A stretch of DNA of 64,000 bases, from the IMG/VR virus record IMGVR_UViG_3300017700_000931, positions 32,001 through 96,000 of that record; one strand, 5' to 3'. Below the pieces are notes generated by a model, which was given only the letters and a program-made list of their open reading frames with translations, did no database searches and was not told where the DNA came from. The position numbers and the translations under genes are program-made. The stretch is from a virus (lineage: Duplodnaviria > Caudoviricetes). This document shows positions 1,296 through 48,220 of the stretch, piece by piece (the stretch's first letter is position 1; each line of letters starts with the position of its first letter).

Positions 1296-1330
1296 ATTTG
1301 ATAGGAATTACAACCTATCGTATTATTTTG

Positions 1331-1416
1331 AGCATGTGATAGGATTCGAACCTATGATGAGGGTTGCCCCATACGGTTTTGCAGACCGTTGCCTTCGACC
1401 ACTCGACCACACATGC
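1331..1416 (-). tRNA. tRNA-Cys(GCA) with long variable arm
   Basis: ACGGT-CTGCAAA-ACCGT; U73; variable hairpin GGG-GCAA-CCC. Confidence 0.85.
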
Positions 1417-12496: not shown

Positions 12497-13887
12497 ACTA
12501 ATGTTTTTACCATGTGTTCGATTTCCTTAGCTGATTCTAATGAATCACAAGTGTTTTTATCCGTCCTTAATTCCACTACGGATGGATGTAAAGTAGACCA
12601 ATTACCATCTGAATCTTGGGATAATCCGCAACATCTTATTTCTACAACGCTACCCATTAATTTTTCTTGATTTTCGGTAACGTACTTCATCATTTCTTCG
12701 TTCATACCTGATGGATTTGTTTTTAACAAACCACAAGATGACTCAGTTCTAATTGTTGAAATAACATTTTCATTCTTGGTGCCCTTAGTTCCATAATTAA
12801 AACCAACGATTTTTAAATCAATAGACATTTCAAGTTTCATTTTTACTTGCCAGTTGGGTTTGCCATCTTTCCAAGCTCCATCATGCGCCTTAAGAATAGT
12901 TCCTTCGAGACCTTTAGCTAATGCTGTTTGAAAATGGGCCATCGCATCTGAATAAGATTCACATAGAACATTTTCTACCACACATACCTTGTTGTTTTCA
13001 TTTTGATTACCAAATAAAACACCCTCTAAATTTTTAAGTCTTTCATGATATGGTACTGATGTTTTTTTATTAAAATACTCATCAGTTGTAATCATATCCC
13101 AAACTGTAAACCGGATACCATTTATTGCATCAATATAAGGACCATGTTTTTTATCGAACGCACTTATTTTTTTAAGTGTTTCTACTTCACCTCTTTCTTC
13201 ACGCTTACCTTCGATATCTACGATTGATGCAACCATACCATTCGCAGTATATCTGTCGTATCCATCAATAGTTAATTCACCATTCAAAACAACGTCATTC
13301 AATAATTCCAATTCTTTTAAAAATGGTGCATTACCAACGAATGTTGTTTCACTTTGTCTTGAAACCAATTCAACTTCACCACCACGAATAATCGCATTAC
13401 AATAACGACCATCCATTTTTATTTGTGAAAAGGCTTTTTTACTTTTGTTGAAAATATCTTTAGCCAATTTTTCTGAAAATGATTTAGCTCCCATGTATGG
13501 TGTTTCTTCAATCAAATTAGGGATGACTTTATTTATCCCAGAGTCCATACCAATTTTCAAGTCTTTTTGAATGATACGTTCAATAACATAAGCATCATCT
13601 GATAATACTGATGAAAGAATATCTCTTAAATATTCAATAGCATCATTACCAGTGACTTCTCGATTGATTAATTTATCAAGTTTTTTCAATGCTTCATCAA
13701 GAGTTAAAGATGAATTACCATCCTTTGTGTATTCTGGAATTTGCTTAATATAAAACTTAATGCGTTTTGAATCGGCCAGATAAAGAACTCGTTTTAATAA
13801 TTCATTATCCTTGTATTTACCAAGAATCGCTAATTTAGCAAGCTTACCATTATCAGCCGCAATTTCATCTAAAATTTGTTTAATCAT
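12493..13887 (-). CDS. ATP-dependent DNA ligase
   Basis: KMDGRY, LNGEL, EGTILK, KMK motifs; C-terminal OB fold. Confidence 0.9.
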   Translation of the reverse strand: MIKQILDEIAADNGKLAKLAILGKYKDNELLKRVLYLADSKRIKFYIKQIPEYTKDGNSSLTLDEALKKLDKLINREVTGNDAIEYLRDILSSVLSDDAYVIERIIQKDLKIGMDSGINKVIPNLIEETPYMGAKSFSEKLAKDIFNKSKKAFSQIKMDGRYCNAIIRGGEVELVSRQSETTFVGNAPFLKELELLNDVVLNGELTIDGYDRYTANGMVASIVDIEGKREERGEVETLKKISAFDKKHGPYIDAINGIRFTVWDMITTDEYFNKKTSVPYHERLKNLEGVLFGNQNENNKVCVVENVLCESYSDAMAHFQTALAKGLEGTILKAHDGAWKDGKPNWQVKMKLEMSIDLKIVGFNYGTKGTKNENVISTIRTESSCGLLKTNPSGMNEEMMKYVTENQEKLMGSVVEIRCCGLSQDSDGNWSTLHPSVVELRTDKNTCDSLESAKEIEHMVKTLV

Positions 13888-14684: not shown

Positions 14685-15209
14685 TTATTTAGTACGCTTT
14701 GATTTTTTACCATTCCACTCATCCTTTATTGCTAACCAAGGGAATAATTTATAAAATTTTGACCAGACTCTTTTAGACCTTTTTTTACTTGGATATCGAA
14801 TAGAATTACCACTACTTCCGCCACTGCCAACTTTAACATCTTTGTTATCCCGACCCTCTTTTATTGGAGTCTTTGACATTTCAATTTCTTGTAAATTTTT
14901 TTTCCTTCTTATTTCATACCATTTAGAAAGTACGTCATCACGCTTTAAGCCTAATTCTATTGATATGATTATTATTTGAATTGGTGCCCTAAGCCATCCA
15001 TTTTTTAAGTACTGAGTGGGTTCATAAGGGGCTGTTAAACAATCATAAGCAGAGATACCCATAGCAATTGCTATTTGGGCCTCTTGAAGTGTTTTATCAT
15101 AATCAAACATTAGTTCTAATCCATGAGCTTCATGCATTAAAAATTCCATTCTACGATGCATTTGTCTTCTATCTCTAGCCATGATTATTCCACATCCGGT
15201 TTTAACCAA
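14685..15209 (-). CDS. hypothetical protein
   Basis: 174-aa ORF. Confidence 0.5.
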   Translation of the reverse strand: MVKTGCGIIMARDRRQMHRRMEFLMHEAHGLELMFDYDKTLQEAQIAIAMGISAYDCLTAPYEPTQYLKNGWLRAPIQIIIISIELGLKRDDVLSKWYEIRRKKNLQEIEMSKTPIKEGRDNKDVKVGSGGSSGNSIRYPSKKRSKRVWSKFYKLFPWLAIKDEWNGKKSKRTK

Positions 15210-23695: not shown

Positions 23696-23772
23696 TACAG
23701 ATGATAGGATTCGAACCTACATTGCGCTCCGTTACAGCTTCTAGTTTCGAAGACTAGGCTGGCTACATCTGT
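23696..23772 (-). tRNA. D-armless tRNA-Arg(UCG)-like
   Basis: Acceptor ACAGATG/CATCTGT, CTAGT-CTTCGAA-ACTAG, canonical T arm, no D arm. Confidence 0.65.
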
Positions 23773-23773
23773 A

Positions 23774-24007
23774 TTAAAATATCATTCTTTTCCTCACAAT
23801 TAAATCATGGTCATTATATGATTTAAAATCCCATCTAATTTTATCCACTTTTTGACCTTTTTCTAACCTCATTCCTTTTATTTTATTATTCTCACAAACA
23901 CTACCAATAAAATAACCAAACTTTCTAAGTATTGGATTGATGAGGACCTTTAACAAAGACCTATGATTAACAATTTTGTTATCTTTATAAAGTATTCCCA
24001 ATTTCAT
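23774..24007 (-). CDS. hypothetical protein inside tRNA cluster
   Basis: 77-aa ORF filling gap. Confidence 0.6.
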   Translation of the reverse strand: MKLGILYKDNKIVNHRSLLKVLINPILRKFGYFIGSVCENNKIKGMRLEKGQKVDKIRWDFKSYNDHDLIVRKRMIF

Positions 24008-24008
24008 G

Positions 24009-24080
24009 TGACTCCGACAGGAATCGAACCTGTATCAAAAGTTTAGGAAACTTCTATTCTATCCGTTGAACTACGGAGCC
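24009..24080 (-). tRNA. tRNA-Arg(CCU)
   Basis: GAAGT-TTCCTAA-ACTTT. Confidence 0.9.
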
Positions 24081-24118
24081 ATTATCATTAATAATAAATA
24101 CTCTATAAAAATCAAGAG

Positions 24119-24190
24119 TAGCGATATACAGAATCGAACTGTAATTTCAAGGATATGAGCCGAGTGTAATAACCACTATACGATATCGCC
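24119..24190 (-). tRNA. tRNA-Met(CAU), elongator-type (weak anticodon stem)
   Basis: CTCGG-CTCATAT-CCTTG. Confidence 0.7.
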
Positions 24191-24292
24191 ATGTAAAAGT
24201 AATTTAATTATTGGGAGGTGCCCGACTTCTCCTTTTTGTATGGGTCTTTGTCAAATGAGCCAAATTTCAAACTCAACAATAAATTACTTTTG

Positions 24293-24380
24293 CTACTGGG
24301 GTGGGATTCGAACCCACGGTGGAGAATTAACTCGTCAGATTAACAGTCTGATGCATTCGGCCAACTATGCGAACCCAGTA
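24293..24380 (-). tRNA. tRNA-Asn(GUU) with long variable arm
   Basis: TCAGA-CTGTTAA-TCTGA; G73; variable hairpin GAG-TTAATT-CTC. Confidence 0.85.
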
Positions 24381-24390
24381 ATAAATATTG

Positions 24391-24463
24391 CTCTCCTACT
24401 TGGATTCGAACCAAGGACCCTTCGCTTAACAGGCGAACGCTCTAACCGCTGAGCTATAGAAGA
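24391..24463 (-). tRNA. tRNA-Asn(GUU)
   Basis: TTCGC-CTGTTAA-GCGAA; G73. Confidence 0.95.
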
Positions 24464-24544
24464 ATGTAAAATGGAGCTGAGATATTGGATTAATCGGTTT
24501 AATCCTACACCCACTTATTCAAAATATTCGTGGACTCCATTTTG

Positions 24545-24618
24545 TGGGCCTTGTTGGATTCGAACCAACCACCTACTGATTATGAGTCAGTTGCTCTAAC
24601 CGAATGAGCTAAAGGCCC
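24545..24618 (-). tRNA. tRNA-Ile2(CAU), lysidine type
   Basis: ACTGA-CTCATAA-TCAGT; GGGCCTT acceptor and D arm like ileX. Confidence 0.8.
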
Positions 24619-24623
24619 AATTT

Positions 24624-24710
24624 AAGAGTGGAGGATTCGAACCTCCGCAGGGTGCTACCCGTCCCACGACCTTCCTTTGGAATCGAACCAAACTTCAACC
24701 ATTGACTCTT
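24624..24710 (-). ncRNA. tRNA-like RNA with two T-arms
   Basis: TTTGG-TTCGATT-CCAAA and GGAGG-TTCGAAT-CCTCC within AAGAGT/ACTCTT closing stem. Confidence 0.55.
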
Positions 24711-24712
24711 AG

Positions 24713-24789
24713 TACTGACGATGGGATTCGAACCCACTTGTAACCTATTACCCTTTCAACAAGATATAAGCTTGAGGGGATACATCAGC
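24713..24789 (-). tRNA. D-armless tRNA-Ile(UAU)-like
   Basis: Acceptor GCTGATG/CGTCAGT, CAAG-CTTATAT-CTTG, canonical T arm, no D arm. Confidence 0.6.
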
Positions 24790-24919
24790 ATTTGTAGTTT
24801 TATGCCCTAGAGAAACTACAACTCCGTCTCATTTCCGGCTAACGTCTGGTACCATCTTTTAGCCTTATAATCGATACCACATAGTGTGCATGCAAGCAGA
24901 GGCATATGGTGACTTCGAG

Positions 24920-25003
24920 TTGTGTCGGTGGGAGTTGAACCCACTTTGAGGATATACCTCCCAGCTTATCAGGCTGGTGCCTAAACCGTCCGACCCCGAC
25001 ACA
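24920..25003 (-). tRNA. tRNA-Ile(GAU) with long variable arm
   Basis: CCAGC-CTGATAA-GCTGG; variable hairpin GAGG-TATAT-CCTC. Confidence 0.85.
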
Positions 25004-25064
25004 ATAATCTAATTCTAAGCTTCCGTTACCTGAACGGTCTATGAATTAGTAACAGTCTAGCTCG

Positions 25065-25136
25065 TTGTCTCGCCCAGACTCGAACTGGGAATACATCGGT
25101 ATCAGCGATGCGTGATAACCATTTCACCACGAGACA
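25065..25136 (-). tRNA. tRNA-Ile(GAU)
   Basis: CATCG-CTGATAC-CGATG. Confidence 0.85.
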
Positions 25137-25218: not shown

Positions 25219-25256
25219 ACTCTCCTTTACTAGTATTTCAGAGAGACTTGCAAGTG

Positions 25257-25328
25257 CGGACAGGGTCAGACTCGAACTGACATCCCCTCGCTTAACAGGC
25301 GAGTGTTTTACATTAGTACTACCTGTCC
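25257..25328 (-). tRNA. tRNA-Asn(GUU)
   Basis: CTCGC-CTGTTAA-GCGAG; G73. Confidence 0.85.
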
Positions 25329-25385
25329 ATAGGTAAAAGAGCCTTGCACTCTATTTGGAAGTCACATCTATGCTTCTAAGTCAAG

Positions 25386-25459
25386 GGTGACTGACGGGAA
25401 TCGAACCCGCATTAACAGGACCACAACCTGTCGTGTTAGACCATTACACTACAGTCACC
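25386..25459 (-). tRNA. tRNA-His(GUG)
   Basis: ACAGG-TTGTGGT-CCTGT; G-1:C73. Confidence 0.9.
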
Positions 25460-26557: not shown

Positions 26558-27175
26558 TTATTTTTTCTTTTTTTTAGTTTTCCTTGATTTTACTGGTGTT
26601 TTGACAGATGCGGCGATAGAATCTTTTTTTGTCATTTCAACATAATTGAATGGTTTTTCCACTCCTCCGCTAAAATGTGCTGCCGCAGATAATGCAATTT
26701 CTAACTTTTCGTATGGCTTCATTTTAACATTTTGAAGAGCATACATGGCACCATCTGCTATTTCTTCACCACACCCAACTGATATAAAATTATCTTTAGT
26801 CATTGCTACTTGATAATCTTCATCAATCATATAAAGTTCACCTTTATATCCGACTAAGAAGGTCCCACCTTTATCATCACCATCTTTAAATCTTTGACTA
26901 TACCCACCTTTTCTAAAACACTCCTTGACTGAGTCAATAAATGTTGTTATCATGAAATCAAAATCAGATTGACCTTTCTTTTGTTTTGGTGCTTTATAAT
27001 GTGAAGACATTAATAATTGTCCCATCCTAAAACTTGATGTAAAACCCATTATAAATGGTCCTGTTTTGAAAACCTTAGTATCTCGTCTAATATGGATAGA
27101 TAATCCGCCAACACCAGCACTATCACCACCAATTATAACTTTATCCTGTTGAATTAATCCTACTATACATGTCAT
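26558..27175 (-). CDS. HslV/proteasome-like Ntn peptidase
   Basis: MTCIVG..GGDS N-terminal Thr nucleophile; K in TKVF; SVGCG. Confidence 0.75.
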   Translation of the reverse strand: MTCIVGLIQQDKVIIGGDSAGVGGLSIHIRRDTKVFKTGPFIMGFTSSFRMGQLLMSSHYKAPKQKKGQSDFDFMITTFIDSVKECFRKGGYSQRFKDGDDKGGTFLVGYKGELYMIDEDYQVAMTKDNFISVGCGEEIADGAMYALQNVKMKPYEKLEIALSAAAHFSGGVEKPFNYVEMTKKDSIAASVKTPVKSRKTKKKKK

Positions 27176-27225: not shown

Positions 27226-28377
27226 TTATTTGAGTAATTCTTTGAAATTATCAATTTCCTTAGCATTTATGAATCGACCCATCGCTGGGCCATCTTCTAT
27301 TCCAGCATCAGTAGCATCTTTACCAGTAACACTTAAATTAAACTCTAAAAATGCTGCTAACATATTATCATCAAAAGAAATTAGCTTACCAAATTTCTTA
27401 ATTGAATCAGAATTAACGCCGGAACGCACTTGAAGCTTTTTATAGCCAACAATTGAATTAATTGCAAAATCCTTCAATGAAATTAAAAATGTAATAGCTT
27501 TGACTTCATTAGCTGAATATGTCAATTTGTTTAAATCTTTAGCCAATTGTGTTGGGTCATTATTTACTAATAACCAAGCAATTAATATGGCTGGGTCTCT
27601 TTCTTCAATAAAATCTTTGTTAACATCCAACCCAGTGAAAATCCAATCAAACAAATTGTATTTATTAATCAATTGTAAAAAATGAATTACCGATTTACTA
27701 GTTTTTAATCCCTTCAAGAATTCATCTCTGATTCTTTCTGGAGAAATATCTTTAAGACTTGCATCCTTTTGTAATGCTTTATCAACCGCTGGGTCTAATT
27801 CGGAACCAAACCTTCCCGCAAATCTAATTGCTCTCAGAATTCTAAGTCTATCTTCACCAAATCTATCTTCAGCAGAACCAACTGTTTTGACAACACCATT
27901 TTTTAAATCATCAATACCACCAACAAGGTCAACGACTTCGCCAGTATCGATATCATAAAATAATGCGTTAATTGTAAGGTCACGTCTTTTTACATCTGTT
28001 TCAATATTGGTGAATTCAACCTCATCCGGTCTTCTACCTGAACCAATATCTTTTCTGAATGTCGCTATTTCATATTCACCTGAATCGGAAAATACATTAA
28101 TAACACCAAATTGTTTTCCAGTTGGGAGTGTTTTGAGTCCAGCTTCTTTCATCATGGATTCAACCTTGTCTGGAACTGCATCAGTAGCTAAGTCCCAATC
28201 TTTTGGTATTTTACCAAGTAACGCATCTCTAACAGCACCACCAACCACAAATAATTTGTGCCCATTAGCAACAAATATGTTTTTTATTGCAATAATGTCT
28301 TGTGGAACCGGAATGTTCATTTTTACTCGACTTTCCATAATAAGACTTCTGATTTTATTTTTAATAAATTCTTTCAC
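27226..28377 (-). CDS. cca: CCA-adding tRNA nucleotidyltransferase
   Basis: VGGAVRDALLG, DWDLAT, RRDLTINAL, EDRLRILRAIRF; likely GTG start at 28377. Confidence 0.9.
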   Translation of the reverse strand: MKEFIKNKIRSLIMESRVKMNIPVPQDIIAIKNIFVANGHKLFVVGGAVRDALLGKIPKDWDLATDAVPDKVESMMKEAGLKTLPTGKQFGVINVFSDSGEYEIATFRKDIGSGRRPDEVEFTNIETDVKRRDLTINALFYDIDTGEVVDLVGGIDDLKNGVVKTVGSAEDRFGEDRLRILRAIRFAGRFGSELDPAVDKALQKDASLKDISPERIRDEFLKGLKTSKSVIHFLQLINKYNLFDWIFTGLDVNKDFIEERDPAILIAWLLVNNDPTQLAKDLNKLTYSANEVKAITFLISLKDFAINSIVGYKKLQVRSGVNSDSIKKFGKLISFDDNMLAAFLEFNLSVTGKDATDAGIEDGPAMGRFINAKEIDNFKELLK

Positions 28378-28412
28378 TTGCAAATATAAGTATTAATTTT
28401 TGGATGACCTAA

Positions 28413-46789: not shown

Positions 46790-48220
46790 TTAAATTGAAA
46801 CTGCCGAGTAACGGTCAGCACCAATAATATTCATCATCATTGAATAAGGGTTTAAATCCTTACCAGACAATAGACTTGTCAATAATGCCGGACTGAATCC
46901 AGATACTAACGCAGTTCCATTTTTATCGTGTTGAACTGGTTTATTTTTATCACCATGTGATTTAATATTCCAGAATACGATTTTTGGTAAAACGTAACCA
47001 GCTTCAGTATACATGTTTTCAATCATTTTAATGGCTGTTGCATTATAACGAGTACATGAATCAAATTCCATATCACTAAGGATTAGAATCATTGTTGGCA
47101 TTTCTTCAGCCGGAACTGAATGTTTAACCGCTTGGGTTAGAACTGTCTTAAATGCAGCTTCCAAATTAGTATTCATATCCCATTGTGCTCTGGATAATTG
47201 ATTACATCTTTCGGACAATTTACCTTTAAGAATTTGCAATTCTGGACGAGCCGAGAATGTCAAGAACGCATCTTTGAACAAACCAACGTTTCTCTCAGAG
47301 ATATACAATCCAAGTGATAATGCAACATCCATTGCACTAACATTTGGGTTATTACCTGCCGCAGTACACATTGAACCAGATACATCCACCATTGGTAGAA
47401 CTCTTTCTTCATTTCCAGACATATAGTTTGGAAGTGCGTTCCATTGTGCATCAGCTCCCCTAGCATTACCATTTCTAAGGTTCTTAATAATATCATAAGG
47501 GTAGACAGCACCAGCATTAATCTTTGTTTCACCTTTTTCAAGTGAATTCAAATACTCAGTGAATCTAGCATGGTCATTCTTACCAAATGCTTTCATGTAA
47601 TCAGACATCGCTTTAGATGGAACGTGAGCATAATTAATAGCTTGCCATTCTTTAGCACACATTAATTGTTCTACGGTTTTTGACAACCCGACAATCAATT
47701 TTCTATAGTCCTTTGGAGCTAACTTAAGATAAGTTCTAATTGCATTAGCTTGTTTTTTGTTAGCACGATTTTTTCCATTACCTCTTGGGCACCATTTAGC
47801 GCACAATTGATTTCCGGCTGACAAACCTTTAGAGATTAATTCTAGTGCATCCTTTTCCAATTCTGTACCAATTAATTCTACAACATCTGACCATCTTCCA
47901 TATTCTGGAATTAGGTGAATGTTTTTTCTCATGACTTCAGTATGGTTATTAGCCAAGTGTGTCATGATATCAATTGCTGTTTGTCTTTCACCAGCACCAC
48001 CTCTAACATCTCTTACCCAGAATAAGATTTTCATTGCAGTCAATGCATCTTCTGAATAAGCTTTTATGAAGGCGTTAATTTTTCTTTGTTTTTCAGCACC
48101 CCTTACGGCACCAATCATTGAAAATAAATCCACACAGTGGTTAAGGGTTGAGGAATTTGTAGACATTCCATTTTGAGTCACTGAATCCTCAGTTCTCATA
48201 GCATTTAATAATTTGCTCAT
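46790..48220 (-). CDS. DUF2828-type TROVE/Ro60-like protein with vWA domain
   Basis: NGM..STL..CVDLF, RDVRGGAGER, YGRWSD, AKWCPR, VDVSGSM, FLTFS, LSDMEFD, VFWN, SGFS. Confidence 0.8.
   Translation of the reverse strand: MSKLLNAMRTEDSVTQNGMSTNSSTLNHCVDLFSMIGAVRGAEKQRKINAFIKAYSEDALTAMKILFWVRDVRGGAGERQTAIDIMTHLANNHTEVMRKNIHLIPEYGRWSDVVELIGTELEKDALELISKGLSAGNQLCAKWCPRGNGKNRANKKQANAIRTYLKLAPKDYRKLIVGLSKTVEQLMCAKEWQAINYAHVPSKAMSDYMKAFGKNDHARFTEYLNSLEKGETKINAGAVYPYDIIKNLRNGNARGADAQWNALPNYMSGNEERVLPMVDVSGSMCTAAGNNPNVSAMDVALSLGLYISERNVGLFKDAFLTFSARPELQILKGKLSERCNQLSRAQWDMNTNLEAAFKTVLTQAVKHSVPAEEMPTMILILSDMEFDSCTRYNATAIKMIENMYTEAGYVLPKIVFWNIKSHGDKNKPVQHDKNGTALVSGFSPALLTSLLSGKDLNPYSMMMNIIGADRYSAVSI

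What the first reader, a model, noticed from the sequence alone, without database searches (positions are those of the whole stretch)
23696..24789. Two D-armless tRNA-like genes share a new architecture
Arg(UCG)-like 23696-23772 and Ile(UAU)-like 24713-24789 keep the acceptor stem, T arm and a 7-nt anticodon loop but lack a D arm. In both, the anticodon helix extends by 4 bp past a 3' bulge (CAGC/GCTG with AA bulge; CCCT/AGGG with TTGAA bulge), followed by 13-14 nt starting TAA(C/T). The shared design in two different sequences argues against decay. They may be unusual functional tRNAs or anticodon decoys.
Basis: seen in the sequence. Interest (0 to 1): 0.65.

Follow-up and report, generated by a model that had tools for sequence, protein, structure and literature searches.

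The report
Phage tRNAs with re-threaded D arm
Two genes in a giant phage's tRNA cluster are very probably working arginine and isoleucine tRNAs of a widespread, almost phage-only class in which the parts of the D arm lie on both sides of the anticodon arm instead of forming their own hairpin, a layout that gene finders miss and that I found in no paper.

Summary
Both elements are real, on the minus strand, at the stated coordinates: a 7-bp acceptor stem, anticodon arm (UCG; UAU), T arm, and no D hairpin. They are not decayed copies. A covariance model built from them and their relatives separates a family (at least 47.7 bits) from ordinary tRNAs (at most 37.6 bits). I collected 95 distinct members from IMG/VR contigs. 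Cultured phages also carry it: Pseudomonas PA11, Maribacter Panino, Streptomyces Mildred21 and Rhodococcus Peregrin.

Two of its pairs are paired in 93 of 93 parsed sequences. The stretch after it is a D-loop equivalent, U-A-R-N(1-3)-G-G. Its R covaries with the base before the T stem (92 of 93), like the 15-48 pair. The base after GG is A in all 65 Arg members and U in 27 of 28 Ile members, which are the known position-20 identity elements.

So the D stem and D loop are present but re-threaded around the anticodon arm. Members carry only Arg or Ile-type anticodons. In this phage they supply the anticodons missing from its ordinary set, and AUA is 23% of Ile codons. Expression and charging are untested.

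Earlier notes of this scan reached the same reading on other genomes.

The parts
23696..23772 (-). Re-threaded tRNA-Arg(UCG) gene, 77 nt; followed by an encoded CCA at 23695-23693
   Evidence: Family model R1 scores it 69.2 bits. Rfam RF00005 scores it 39.9 bits. ARAGORN makes no call. The CCA is seen.
23766..23772 (-). Arg gene: acceptor stem 5' strand, which pairs with 23697-23703; discriminator A at 23696; U8-A9 at 23765-23764
   Evidence: 7 of 7 Watson-Crick pairs. The acceptor pairs covary across the family.
23758..23761 (-). Arg gene: 5' strand of the D-stem equivalent (CAGC, equivalent to positions 23-26), continuous with the anticodon stem
   Evidence: It pairs with GCTG at 23735-23738. 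The family core pairs are paired in 93/93, 93/93 and 65/93 sequences and covary.
23741..23757 (-). Arg gene: anticodon arm CTAGT / CTTCGAA / ACTAG; anticodon UCG at 23750-23748
23735..23740 (-). Arg gene: 2-nt bulge AA (23740-23739), then the 3' strand of the D-stem equivalent, GCTG (23738-23735, equivalent to positions 10-12 plus one)
23721..23734 (-). Arg gene: D-loop equivalent TAACGGA (23734-23728: U13, A14, A15, C, G18, G19, A20), then linker GCGCAAT ending in the U that pairs with A15
   Evidence: Motif and covariation. It resembles the D arm of the phage's own ordinary tRNA-Arg (GTTC AACGGATA).
23704..23720 (-). Arg gene: T arm GTAGG / TTCGAAT / CCTAT
24713..24789 (-). Re-threaded tRNA-Ile(UAU) gene, 77 nt; no encoded CCA (followed by CTA)
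   Evidence: Family model R1 scores it 72.7 bits. Rfam RF00005 scores it 25.6 bits, below the cut-off. ARAGORN makes no call.
24783..24789 (-). Ile gene: acceptor stem 5' strand, which pairs with 24714-24720 (two G.U pairs); discriminator A at 24713; U8-A9 at 24782-24781
   Evidence: The ortholog in L001 carries compensatory changes.
24776..24780 (-). Ile gene: TCCCC; the CCC at 24779-24777 is the 5' strand of the D-stem equivalent
   Evidence: It pairs with GGG at 24751-24753. The alternative register CCCT/AGGG is also possible.
24759..24775 (-). Ile gene: anticodon arm TCAAG / CTTATAT / CTTGT (U.U at the top); anticodon UAU at 24768-24766
24751..24758 (-). Ile gene: bulge TGAAA (24758-24754), then the 3' strand of the D-stem equivalent, GGG (24753-24751)
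24738..24750 (-). Ile gene: D-loop equivalent TAATAGGT (24750-24743; U20 after GG), then linker TACAA. Its last base is A, so the 15-48-type pair is A.A, the only exception among 93 sequences
24721..24737 (-). Ile gene: T arm GTGGG / TTCGAAT / CCCAT

Best explanation
Both genes encode working elongator tRNAs, Arg(UCG) for CGA/CGG and Ile(UAU) for AUA. They belong to a phage class in which the D/anticodon domain is circularly permuted.

Chain order: acceptor 5' strand, U8-A9, D-stem strand equivalent to 22/23-25, anticodon arm, a 2-5-nt bulge, D-stem strand equivalent to 10-12, U13, D loop (A14, R15, ..., G18, G19, N20), a variable linker ending in Y48, T arm, acceptor 3' strand.

Inferred fold: the short D-stem helix stacks on the anticodon stem, as in an ordinary tRNA. 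The D-loop bases dock on U8, Y48 and the T loop, so the L shape is kept although no D hairpin exists.

Inferred function: the RNAs are cut out of the array transcript and finished by the phage's CCA-adding enzyme (27226-28383). The host ArgRS and IleRS charge them, through A20 plus C35 and through A73, U20 and the anticodon respectively.

What is shown and what is inferred: shown are the conservation, the covariation, the identity-element pattern and the synteny. Inferred are the folding into an L, the processing, the charging and the decoding. Why this layout is kept is unknown. My guess is one rearrangement that worked and then radiated, possibly helped by escape from enzymes that read the ordinary D arm.
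For: (1) A distinct family exists. Model R1 gives at least 47.7 bits to family members and at most 37.6 bits to ordinary tRNAs. There are 96 matches (95 distinct) in 59 sources.

(2) All helices covary. Acceptor, anticodon and T stems are 97-98% paired. For the D-stem equivalent, pair 12-47 is CG85/UA6/AU2 and pair 13-46 is GC63/CG19/AU11/GU1/UA1 with none unpaired. A parse anchored without the model gives 93/93, 93/93 and 65/93 paired, against shuffles at 172 +/- 6 of 279 (observed 251).

(3) D-loop signature. U-A-R-N(1-3)-G-G is invariant. R pairs with the base before the T stem in 92/93 (A-U 76, G-C 15).

(4) Synthetase identity elements track the anticodon. The base after GG is A in 65/65 Arg members and U in 27/28 Ile members. 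N73 is A in 28/28 Ile members. These are the bacterial determinants listed in PMC9976931, Table 1.

(5) The body sequence tracks amino-acid identity even with the anticodon loop and position 20 removed: 4 label changes on the tree against 24.6 when shuffled.

(6) Synteny. The order Ile-GAU, re-threaded UAU, Met, Asn..., Arg-CCU, re-threaded UCG, Arg-ACG, Arg-UCU, Ser-GCU is shared with L009, L019, L022 and L001. In relatives, re-threaded genes fill slots that ordinary Arg and Ile genes fill here.

(7) The same 3' context as ordinary tRNA genes. C follows N73 in 92/93 family genes and in all 31 ordinary tRNA genes of the window. A CCA-adding enzyme gene lies next to the array.

(8) Need. UAU and UCG are absent from the phage's 57 ordinary tRNAs. 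ATA is 23% of Ile codons (18.8 per 1000) and CGA is 8.5% of Arg codons. No TilS, IleRS or ArgRS gene was found in the genome.

(9) In the 49.6-kb Pseudomonas phage PA11, a re-threaded Arg(UCU) is the only tRNA-like gene in the genome. Related Pseudomonas phages keep it.
Against: Expression, end processing, modification, charging and ribosome use are therefore all inferred.

RNAalifold run on the plain MAFFT alignment did not call the 3-bp D-stem equivalent.

The pair of that helix nearest the anticodon stem is unpaired in about a third of members.

The phylogenetically independent-pairs test lacked power, with 1-4 usable pairs.

The Ile gene of this window has an A.A at the 15-48-type pair and two G.U pairs in the acceptor stem, so it could be a weaker copy.

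Host IleRS enzymes normally see G34 or lysidine-34, not U34.

CGA can already be read by the ordinary Arg(ACG) tRNA if A34 is deaminated.

In 14 of 68 loci a re-threaded and an ordinary tRNA share an anticodon.
Confidence: 0.7

Rival explanations
1. tRNA-shaped decoys or sponges. The RNAs would be made but not used in translation. They would soak up host anticodon nucleases or other tRNA-binding defence or regulatory proteins that target Arg and Ile tRNAs.
For: The anticodon loops are very well conserved. The family is confined to two amino-acid identities. In 14 of 68 loci a re-threaded gene duplicates the anticodon of an ordinary one. The non-standard core could make the RNA resistant to cleavage or to charging.
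Against: A decoy has no need for A20 in every Arg member, A73 and U20 in Ile members, a 7-bp covarying acceptor stem, or the 3' context shared with real tRNA genes. In this phage the two genes carry anticodons that no ordinary phage tRNA supplies. PA11 carries such a gene as its only tRNA-like gene.
Confidence: 0.12
2. Truly D-armless tRNAs with an extended anticodon stem and a long, unstructured variable region. The GG stretch would make no D-loop-like contacts, and the molecule would be flexible like mitochondrial tRNA-Ser(AGY).
For: The secondary structure is the same as in my reading. Rfam aligns the stretch as a variable-region insertion. RNAalifold finds only three helices.
Against: An unstructured linker would not keep U-A-R..GG invariant. 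It would not covary its R with the base before the T stem in 92/93 sequences. It would not carry the position-20 identity base that matches the anticodon. The stretch together with the preceding strand also copies the 5' half of ordinary Arg and Ile D arms.
Confidence: 0.1
3. Decaying or chimeric pseudogenes left by recombination within a crowded tRNA array.
For: The array holds other odd tRNA-like pieces, for example 24622-24712. The Ile gene falls below Rfam's cut-off and has an A.A at the 15-48-type pair.
Against: There are 95 distinct members with compensatory changes in every helix. They occupy syntenic positions across diverged phages whose CCA-enzyme is 49-66% identical. The family is present in phages of Pseudomonas, Maribacter, Streptomyces and Rhodococcus.
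Confidence: 0.03
4. Precursors that are cut and re-ligated at the RNA level into an ordinary cloverleaf tRNA, by analogy with permuted tRNA genes.
For: Moving the segment from the 3' helix strand through the D-loop motif back in front of the 5' helix strand restores ordinary tRNA spacing. ARAGORN then with the same anticodon, against 4/93 for the native sequences.
Against: This would need two internal cuts and two ligations with no bulge-helix-bulge or intron-like signals. A control with the helix strand reversed was called almost as often (88/93), so the test mainly shows spacing. The acceptor ends are already in normal order.
Confidence: 0.02

Closest known systems
Canonical bacterial and phage tRNA-Arg and tRNA-Ile (Rfam RF00005), for example this phage's own Arg(CCU) at 24008-24080 and Ile(GAU) at 25064-25136
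   Same: 7-bp acceptor stem, U8, 5/7/5 anticodon arm with U33 and A37, T arm with TTCGAAT, the A14/R15/G18-G19 motif, an R15-Y48-type covariation, A20 (Arg) or U20 plus A73 (Ile), and an overall length of 74-91 nt.
   Different: There is no D hairpin between positions 9 and 26. The strand equivalent to 22-25 comes first and runs straight into the anticodon stem. The strand equivalent to 10-13 and the D loop come after the anticodon arm. The molecule therefore has a three-way rather than a four-way junction. ARAGORN misses it (4/93). Rfam's cut-off is reached by 16 of 41 members, at only 31-40 bits.
D-armless mitochondrial tRNAs of animals, for example tRNA-Ser(AGY) and nematode tRNA-Ser(UCU) (reviewed in PMC7609411 and PMC9427863)
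   Same: No D hairpin, and an anticodon helix that is longer than 5 bp.
   Different: Mitochondrial forms replace the D arm by a short connector on the 5' side, have short variable loops and have lost the G18-G19/T-loop contacts. Here the 5' connector is 1-2 nt, the long stretch lies 3' of the anticodon arm, and the full D-loop signature is kept. The context is bacterial translation, not mitochondrial.
Circularly permuted tRNA genes of Cyanidioschyzon merolae and other algae (PMC3728597, PMC4033280)
   Same: Segments of a tRNA are encoded in a non-standard order.
   Different: There the whole gene is permuted, with the 3' half before the 5' half. The mature tRNA becomes an ordinary cloverleaf after circularisation and cleavage. 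Here only the inner D/anticodon domain is permuted, the acceptor ends are in normal order, and the permuted order is most likely that of the mature RNA.
TilS-independent tRNA-Ile(UAU), as in Mycoplasma mobile (my own knowledge; named in scan note e1-126203)
   Same: A UAU anticodon that reads AUA without lysidine. This phage has no TilS gene.
   Different: Those tRNAs are ordinary cloverleaves with a co-adapted IleRS. Here the fold is re-threaded and no phage IleRS was found.

Membership tests
Canonical tRNA (Rfam RF00005 / cloverleaf) | 7-bp acceptor stem closing the molecule, with a discriminator base | tested here: met
   Both genes have 7/7 pairs (two G.U in the Ile gene). The pairs covary in the family.
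Canonical tRNA (Rfam RF00005 / cloverleaf) | D hairpin (stem 10-13/22-25 enclosing the D loop) between position 9 and the anticodon arm | tested here: not met
   cmscan deletes the D arm, leaving 2-4 nt. ARAGORN makes no call in any mode.
Canonical tRNA (Rfam RF00005 / cloverleaf) | Anticodon arm 5 bp / 7 nt with U33 and a purine at 37; T arm 5 bp / 7 nt with a T-Psi-C-type loop | tested here: met
   The Ile gene has a U.U at the top anticodon-stem pair.
Canonical tRNA (Rfam RF00005 / cloverleaf) | Score at or above Rfam's gathering cut-off (29 bits) | tested here: inconclusive
   Arg gene 39.9 bits (met); Ile gene 25.6 bits (not met). 16 of 41 family members in 14 loci pass, at 31-40 bits.
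Canonical tRNA (Rfam RF00005 / cloverleaf) | Core tertiary signature: U8, A14, R15-Y48, G18-G19 | tested here: met
   All are present, but in a different chain order. The R15-Y48-type pair holds in 92/93; the window's Ile gene is the single A.A exception. Actual 3D contacts cannot be tested with these tools.
   72.7 and 69.2 bits. They are the only two such matches in the 362.5-kb genome.
   CAGC/GCTG with an AA bulge; CCC/GGG with a TGAAA bulge. Family covariation.
   TAACGGA in the Arg gene and TAATAGGT in the Ile gene.
   UCG and UAU here. Family counts: TCT 30, TCG 19, TAT 17, ACG 10, GAT 10, CCT 6, CAT 1.
Animal mitochondrial D-armless tRNA | The D arm is replaced by a 5'-side connector loop, with a short variable loop and no G18-G19 motif | tested here: not met
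   The 5' connector is 1-2 nt. A 13-14-nt stretch with the full D-loop motif lies 3' of the anticodon arm. ARAGORN's mitochondrial modes do not call the genes.
Circularly permuted tRNA gene (algal type) | [quoted passage not shown] | tested here: not met
   The acceptor 5' and 3' strands lie at the two ends of each gene in normal order.
Functional, aminoacylated elongator tRNA | A mature RNA with a CCA end, charged by the cognate synthetase and used on ribosomes | not testable with these tools
Only indirect support is available: identity elements, synteny and 3' context.

The most novel reading that the evidence does not exclude
These are fully functional tRNAs whose D/anticodon domain is circularly permuted. 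That would make them the first natural non-cloverleaf tRNA class to work with bacterial synthetases, EF-Tu and ribosomes. The class is spread through phages of at least four bacterial phyla. It may persist because the altered core escapes host or phage enzymes that recognise the ordinary D arm of Arg and Ile tRNAs.
Probability: 0.6. Interest if true: 0.9.

Novelty: new variant of a known kind. Interest (0 to 1): 0.82.

Why it matters
[quoted passage not shown] A natural, widespread class with a different chain topology but a preserved core signature would matter in four ways.

- It would show that the cloverleaf connectivity is not required for translation in bacteria.
- It would give tRNA engineers a naturally tested alternative scaffold.
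- It would expose a systematic gap in phage annotation. ARAGORN of 93 members. GenBank leaves the gene unannotated in PA11, Panino and Peregrin, and labels it tRNA-Phe in Mildred21.
- Codon-usage and host-prediction studies that count phage tRNAs miss these AGA, AUA and CGA decoders.

Cultured phages with laboratory hosts carry the family, so the question is directly testable.

Tried and rejected
- ARAGORN in relaxed and mitochondrial modes: no call for either gene.
- Looking for a hidden ordinary D stem or an alternative anticodon arm by eye and by MFE folding: none found. The MFE folds keep the extension helix in the Arg gene but are otherwise uninformative.
- RNAalifold on the MAFFT alignment A1: it returns only the acceptor, anticodon and T stems. 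The 3-bp helix is too short, and four rows are shifted by one column.
- The first viral and prokaryote scan pattern also matches ordinary tRNA-Thr(CGU), through its anticodon loop plus T arm. Raw hit numbers (at least 120 each) are therefore not family counts; only model-confirmed hits were used.
- In-silico 'un-permutation' followed by ARAGORN gives 92/93 calls. Controls gave 88/93 (reversed strand) and 44/93 (shuffled segment). This shows that the segment lengths fit an ordinary tRNA, not that the helix forms.
- Independent-pairs test on the tree: too few supported branches to reach significance.
- The small ORF at 23775-24007, just upstream of the Arg gene, as a possible partner: no relative in any fetched locus, so I dropped it.
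- A phage-encoded ArgRS, class-I IleRS-type enzyme or TilS: none found.
- Seven literature searches and three papers read found no description of this layout. One catalogue of candidate viral structured RNAs lists tRNA-Arg-overlapping motifs without describing them (PMC10690425).
Full report
**Setting.** The window is bases 32001-96000 of a 362,532-bp virus record with direct terminal repeats and 32.7% G+C. ARAGORN finds 57 tRNA genes in the genome, nearly all on the minus strand. Rfam adds a tmRNA at 41052-41434. A CCA-adding enzyme gene lies at 27226-28383 (PolyA_pol head domain, E 5.8e-37). The closest GenBank relatives of that enzyme are uncultured 600-kb phages at 31-36% identity. I do not name a host.

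**Checking the observation.** Both elements read on the minus strand as 77-nt RNAs.
- Each has a 7-bp acceptor stem, U8-A9, a 5/7/5 anticodon arm and a T arm with loop TTCGAAT. The loops are CTTCGAA (anticodon UCG) and CTTATAT (UAU).
It does so only by deleting the D arm and inserting 17-18 nt in the variable region.
- ARAGORN does not call them in any mode.
- In the Arg-like gene, the anticodon stem is flanked by CAGC and, after an AA bulge, GCTG.
- The next 13-14 nt begin TAAC and TAAT.

**Are they alone?** No.
- A relative whose CCA-enzyme is 66% identical (L001) has an ortholog of the Ile-like gene in the same slot, between Ile-GAU and Met. It carries compensatory changes in the acceptor stem, the T stem and the flanking helix.
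- Two anticodon-arm patterns found 22 and 7 more viral stretches.
- I built covariance model R1 from 19 of these sequences, with four helices. It gives a bimodal result: at least 47.7 bits for the family and at most 37.6 bits for ordinary tRNAs.
- In this phage's genome only the two reported genes fall in the upper mode, at 72.7 and 69.2 bits.
- In all I hold 96 matches, 95 of them distinct, from 59 sources.
- With one shared pattern, 65 family matches (54 distinct sequences) were found in the 80 viral loci listed. Only 2 of 80 prokaryote-genome loci hold one, and both come from one MAG. That pattern also hits ordinary tRNA-Thr(CGU), so the raw hit numbers mean little.

**Anatomy of the family.** The layout is: acceptor strand (7 nt), U8-A9, 1-2 nt, a 3-nt strand, 1 nt, the anticodon arm (17 nt), a bulge of 3-5 nt (2 nt in the window's Arg gene, where the fourth C-G pair takes one base), a 3-nt strand, then U-A-R-N(1-3)-G-G-N, a linker of 4-20 nt, the T arm, the acceptor strand and N73.

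The two 3-nt strands pair.
- In a parse anchored only on the anticodon arm and on the UA-R..GG motif, the three pairs are paired in 93/93, 93/93 and 65/93 sequences.
- The pair types vary: CG/UA/AU; GC/CG/AU/GU/UA; AU/GC/CG/UA and others.
- Shuffling the partners gives 172 +/- 6 paired cells of 279, against 251 observed.

On the model-fitted alignment the tool counts 95.3% of all pair cells as paired. Shuffles give 61.5% and slid registers 38-46%. The middle pair of the short helix has no unpaired case in 95 sequences.

Caveats:
- That alignment leans towards the model.
- RNAalifold on the plain MAFFT alignment did not call the 3-bp helix.
- A tree-based independent-pairs test had too few supported branches to say anything.

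**The stretch after the helix is a D loop.**
- U-A-R..GG is invariant.
- The R pairs with the last base before the T stem in 92 of 93 sequences (A-U 76, G-C 15). G-C occurs in several separate Ile and Arg lineages, as the 15-48 pair does in ordinary tRNAs.
- The base after GG is A in all 65 Arg members and U in 27 of 28 Ile-type members.
- N73 is A in all 28 Ile-type members.
- A20 is the main determinant for bacterial ArgRS. A73 and U20 are listed for bacterial IleRS (PMC9976931, Table 1 and the arginine section).
- The 3' helix strand plus this stretch reads like the 5' half of the phage's own ordinary D arms. For example, GTGT AACTGGATA in Arg(ACG) and GTTC AACGGATA in Arg(CCU) compare with CTGT AACGGA in the Arg-like gene.

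**What the layout means.** In an ordinary tRNA the D stem stacks on the anticodon stem.
- Strand 22-25 runs on into 27-31.
- Strand 39-43 abuts strand 10-13 across a nick.
- The D loop follows position 13.

Here the strand that runs into the anticodon stem comes straight after A9. The strand after the anticodon stem is joined to it by the bulge and is followed by the D loop. This is a circular permutation of the D/anticodon domain: closed at 44|10 and opened at 21|22. The same stacked helix and the same loop remain available for the U8, Y48 and T-loop contacts. This step is inference from established tRNA geometry; I could not model it.

Two observations fit a geometric constraint.
- The 5' connector plus the bulge add up to 9 nt in 76 of 93 members.
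- Moving the segments back into ordinary order makes ARAGORN of 93 with the same anticodon, against 4 of 93 for the native sequences. The controls (88/93 and 44/93) show this is mainly a test of spacing.

**Function.** The evidence points to working tRNAs.
- Members carry only Arg anticodons (UCU, UCG, ACG, CCU) or Ile-type ones (UAU, GAU, one CAU).
- With the anticodon loop and position 20 removed, a tree still needs only 4 Arg/Ile changes, against 24.6 for shuffled labels. One Ile clade is not rejected (p-AU 0.78).
- The gene order around both window genes is shared with L009, L019, L022 and L001. In those relatives, re-threaded UCU, ACG and GAU genes sit where this phage has ordinary ones.
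- C follows N73 in 92 of 93 family genes and in all 31 ordinary tRNA genes of the window. Only the Arg-like gene has a full CCA.
- UAU and UCG are absent from the phage's ordinary set.
- ATA makes up 23% of Ile codons and CGA 8.5% of Arg codons in 250 long ORFs.
- The genome has no ArgRS, IleRS-type or TilS gene, so host enzymes must do the charging.

**Cultured phages.**
- Pseudomonas phage PA11 has a re-threaded Arg(UCU) at about 47672-47751 (70.2 bits). It is the only tRNA-like gene in that 49.6-kb genome, it is not annotated, and related Pseudomonas phages keep it.
- Maribacter phage Panino has one (64.1 bits) that is not annotated as a tRNA, although its neighbours are.
- Streptomyces phage Mildred21 has four. 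One has a CUUCGAA loop but is annotated tRNA-Phe(gaa).
- Rhodococcus phage Peregrin has a weaker UAU member (42.5 bits) of the same subtype as the window's Ile gene.

A lone gene kept in a small phage argues strongly against decay. It also argues fairly well against a decoy.

**Weak points.**
- There are no RNA data.
- The window's Ile gene has the family's only A.A at the 15-48-type pair and falls below Rfam's cut-off.
- Charging of a U34 Ile tRNA by a host IleRS is not a given.
- In 14 of 68 loci a re-threaded gene and an ordinary gene share an anticodon.
- Why only Arg and Ile occur, and why the layout is kept, remains a guess.

**Novelty.** Seven full-text searches and three papers read turned up no description.
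- The 2020 review of non-canonical tRNAs mentions neither phages nor permutation.
- A 2024 paper's abstract says all known bacterial tRNAs are cloverleaves (PMC11551756).
- A 2023 catalogue of viral structured RNAs lists motifs that overlap tRNA-Arg calls, without describing them.
- Earlier notes of this scan (e1-5373595, e1-5402883, e1-5362881, e1-5406132) reached the same reading on other genomes. I saw them only after writing down the same idea. They are unchecked notes, not independent evidence.

Noticed in passing
window 24622-24712 (-): A 91-nt tRNA-like element lies directly after the Ile-like gene. It has an acceptor-type closing stem and two T-arm-like hairpins (TTCGATT and TTCGAAT loops), the first of them where an anticodon arm should be. 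It gives weak Rfam matches only (tRNA-Sec 18.8 bits). It is absent at the same spot in L001.
   Followed up: partly
window 24919-25003, 24292-24380, 303-389, 1330-1416 (-): Ile(GAU), Asn(GUU), Met(CAU) and Cys(GCA) tRNAs of 85-89 nt have long variable arms. The Asn one is drawn by ARAGORN with an 8-bp acceptor stem and a 4-bp T stem. Such arms are unusual outside Leu, Ser and Tyr.
   Followed up: no
genome (window = genome minus 32000): 15044-15110, 25232-25292, 67523-67588 (= window 35523-35588), 13134-13224, 25350-25440, 26787-26875, 290084-290180, all (-): My T-arm-plus-acceptor scan finds further tRNA-like genes that ARAGORN does not call. They include 61-67-nt ones with very reduced D regions (loops with GUA, CAU and CUA). 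One 89-nt gene has a UUCG hairpin inserted in its D loop. They do not belong to the re-threaded family.
   Followed up: no
window 23775-24007 (-): A 77-codon ORF lies inside the tRNA array and ends 3 nt before the Arg-like gene. It has no Pfam match and no tblastn relative in any fetched locus.
   Followed up: partly
AUA decoding, the presumed job of the Ile-like gene, would therefore be sensed by it.
   Followed up: partly
all tRNA genes of the window; family genes in L001-L102: The base after the discriminator is C in all 31 ordinary tRNA genes of the window and in 92 of 93 family genes, usually as CAA, CAT or CTA rather than CCA. Only the Arg-like gene encodes CCA. This suggests a shared 3'-end processing or repair rule tied to the phage's CCA-adding enzyme.
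   Followed up: partly
L009:4102-4190, L022:11282-11370, L024:4580-4670, L082:2998-3088, L052:5764-5853 and others: Family members of 86-91 nt carry an extra hairpin in the linker before the T arm. Its stem is TTGA/TCAA and its loop is close to GATAACT, which recalls an Ile(GAU) anticodon loop. It could be a variable arm, or a relic of a second anticodon arm like the two-arm phage tRNAs noted elsewhere by this scan.
   Followed up: no
NC_042008.1 91367-91442 (L272:2495-2570): Streptomyces phage Mildred21's 'tRNA-Phe(gaa)' is a re-threaded family member with loop CUUCGAA, so it is Arg(UCG) by the family register. This is a likely misannotation caused by a shifted loop call.
   Followed up: partly
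own genome, all ARAGORN tRNAs: G1.U72 closes the acceptor stem in 13 of 57 ordinary tRNAs and in about a third of family members (34 of 95). That is an unusually weak first pair for elongator tRNAs.
   Followed up: no
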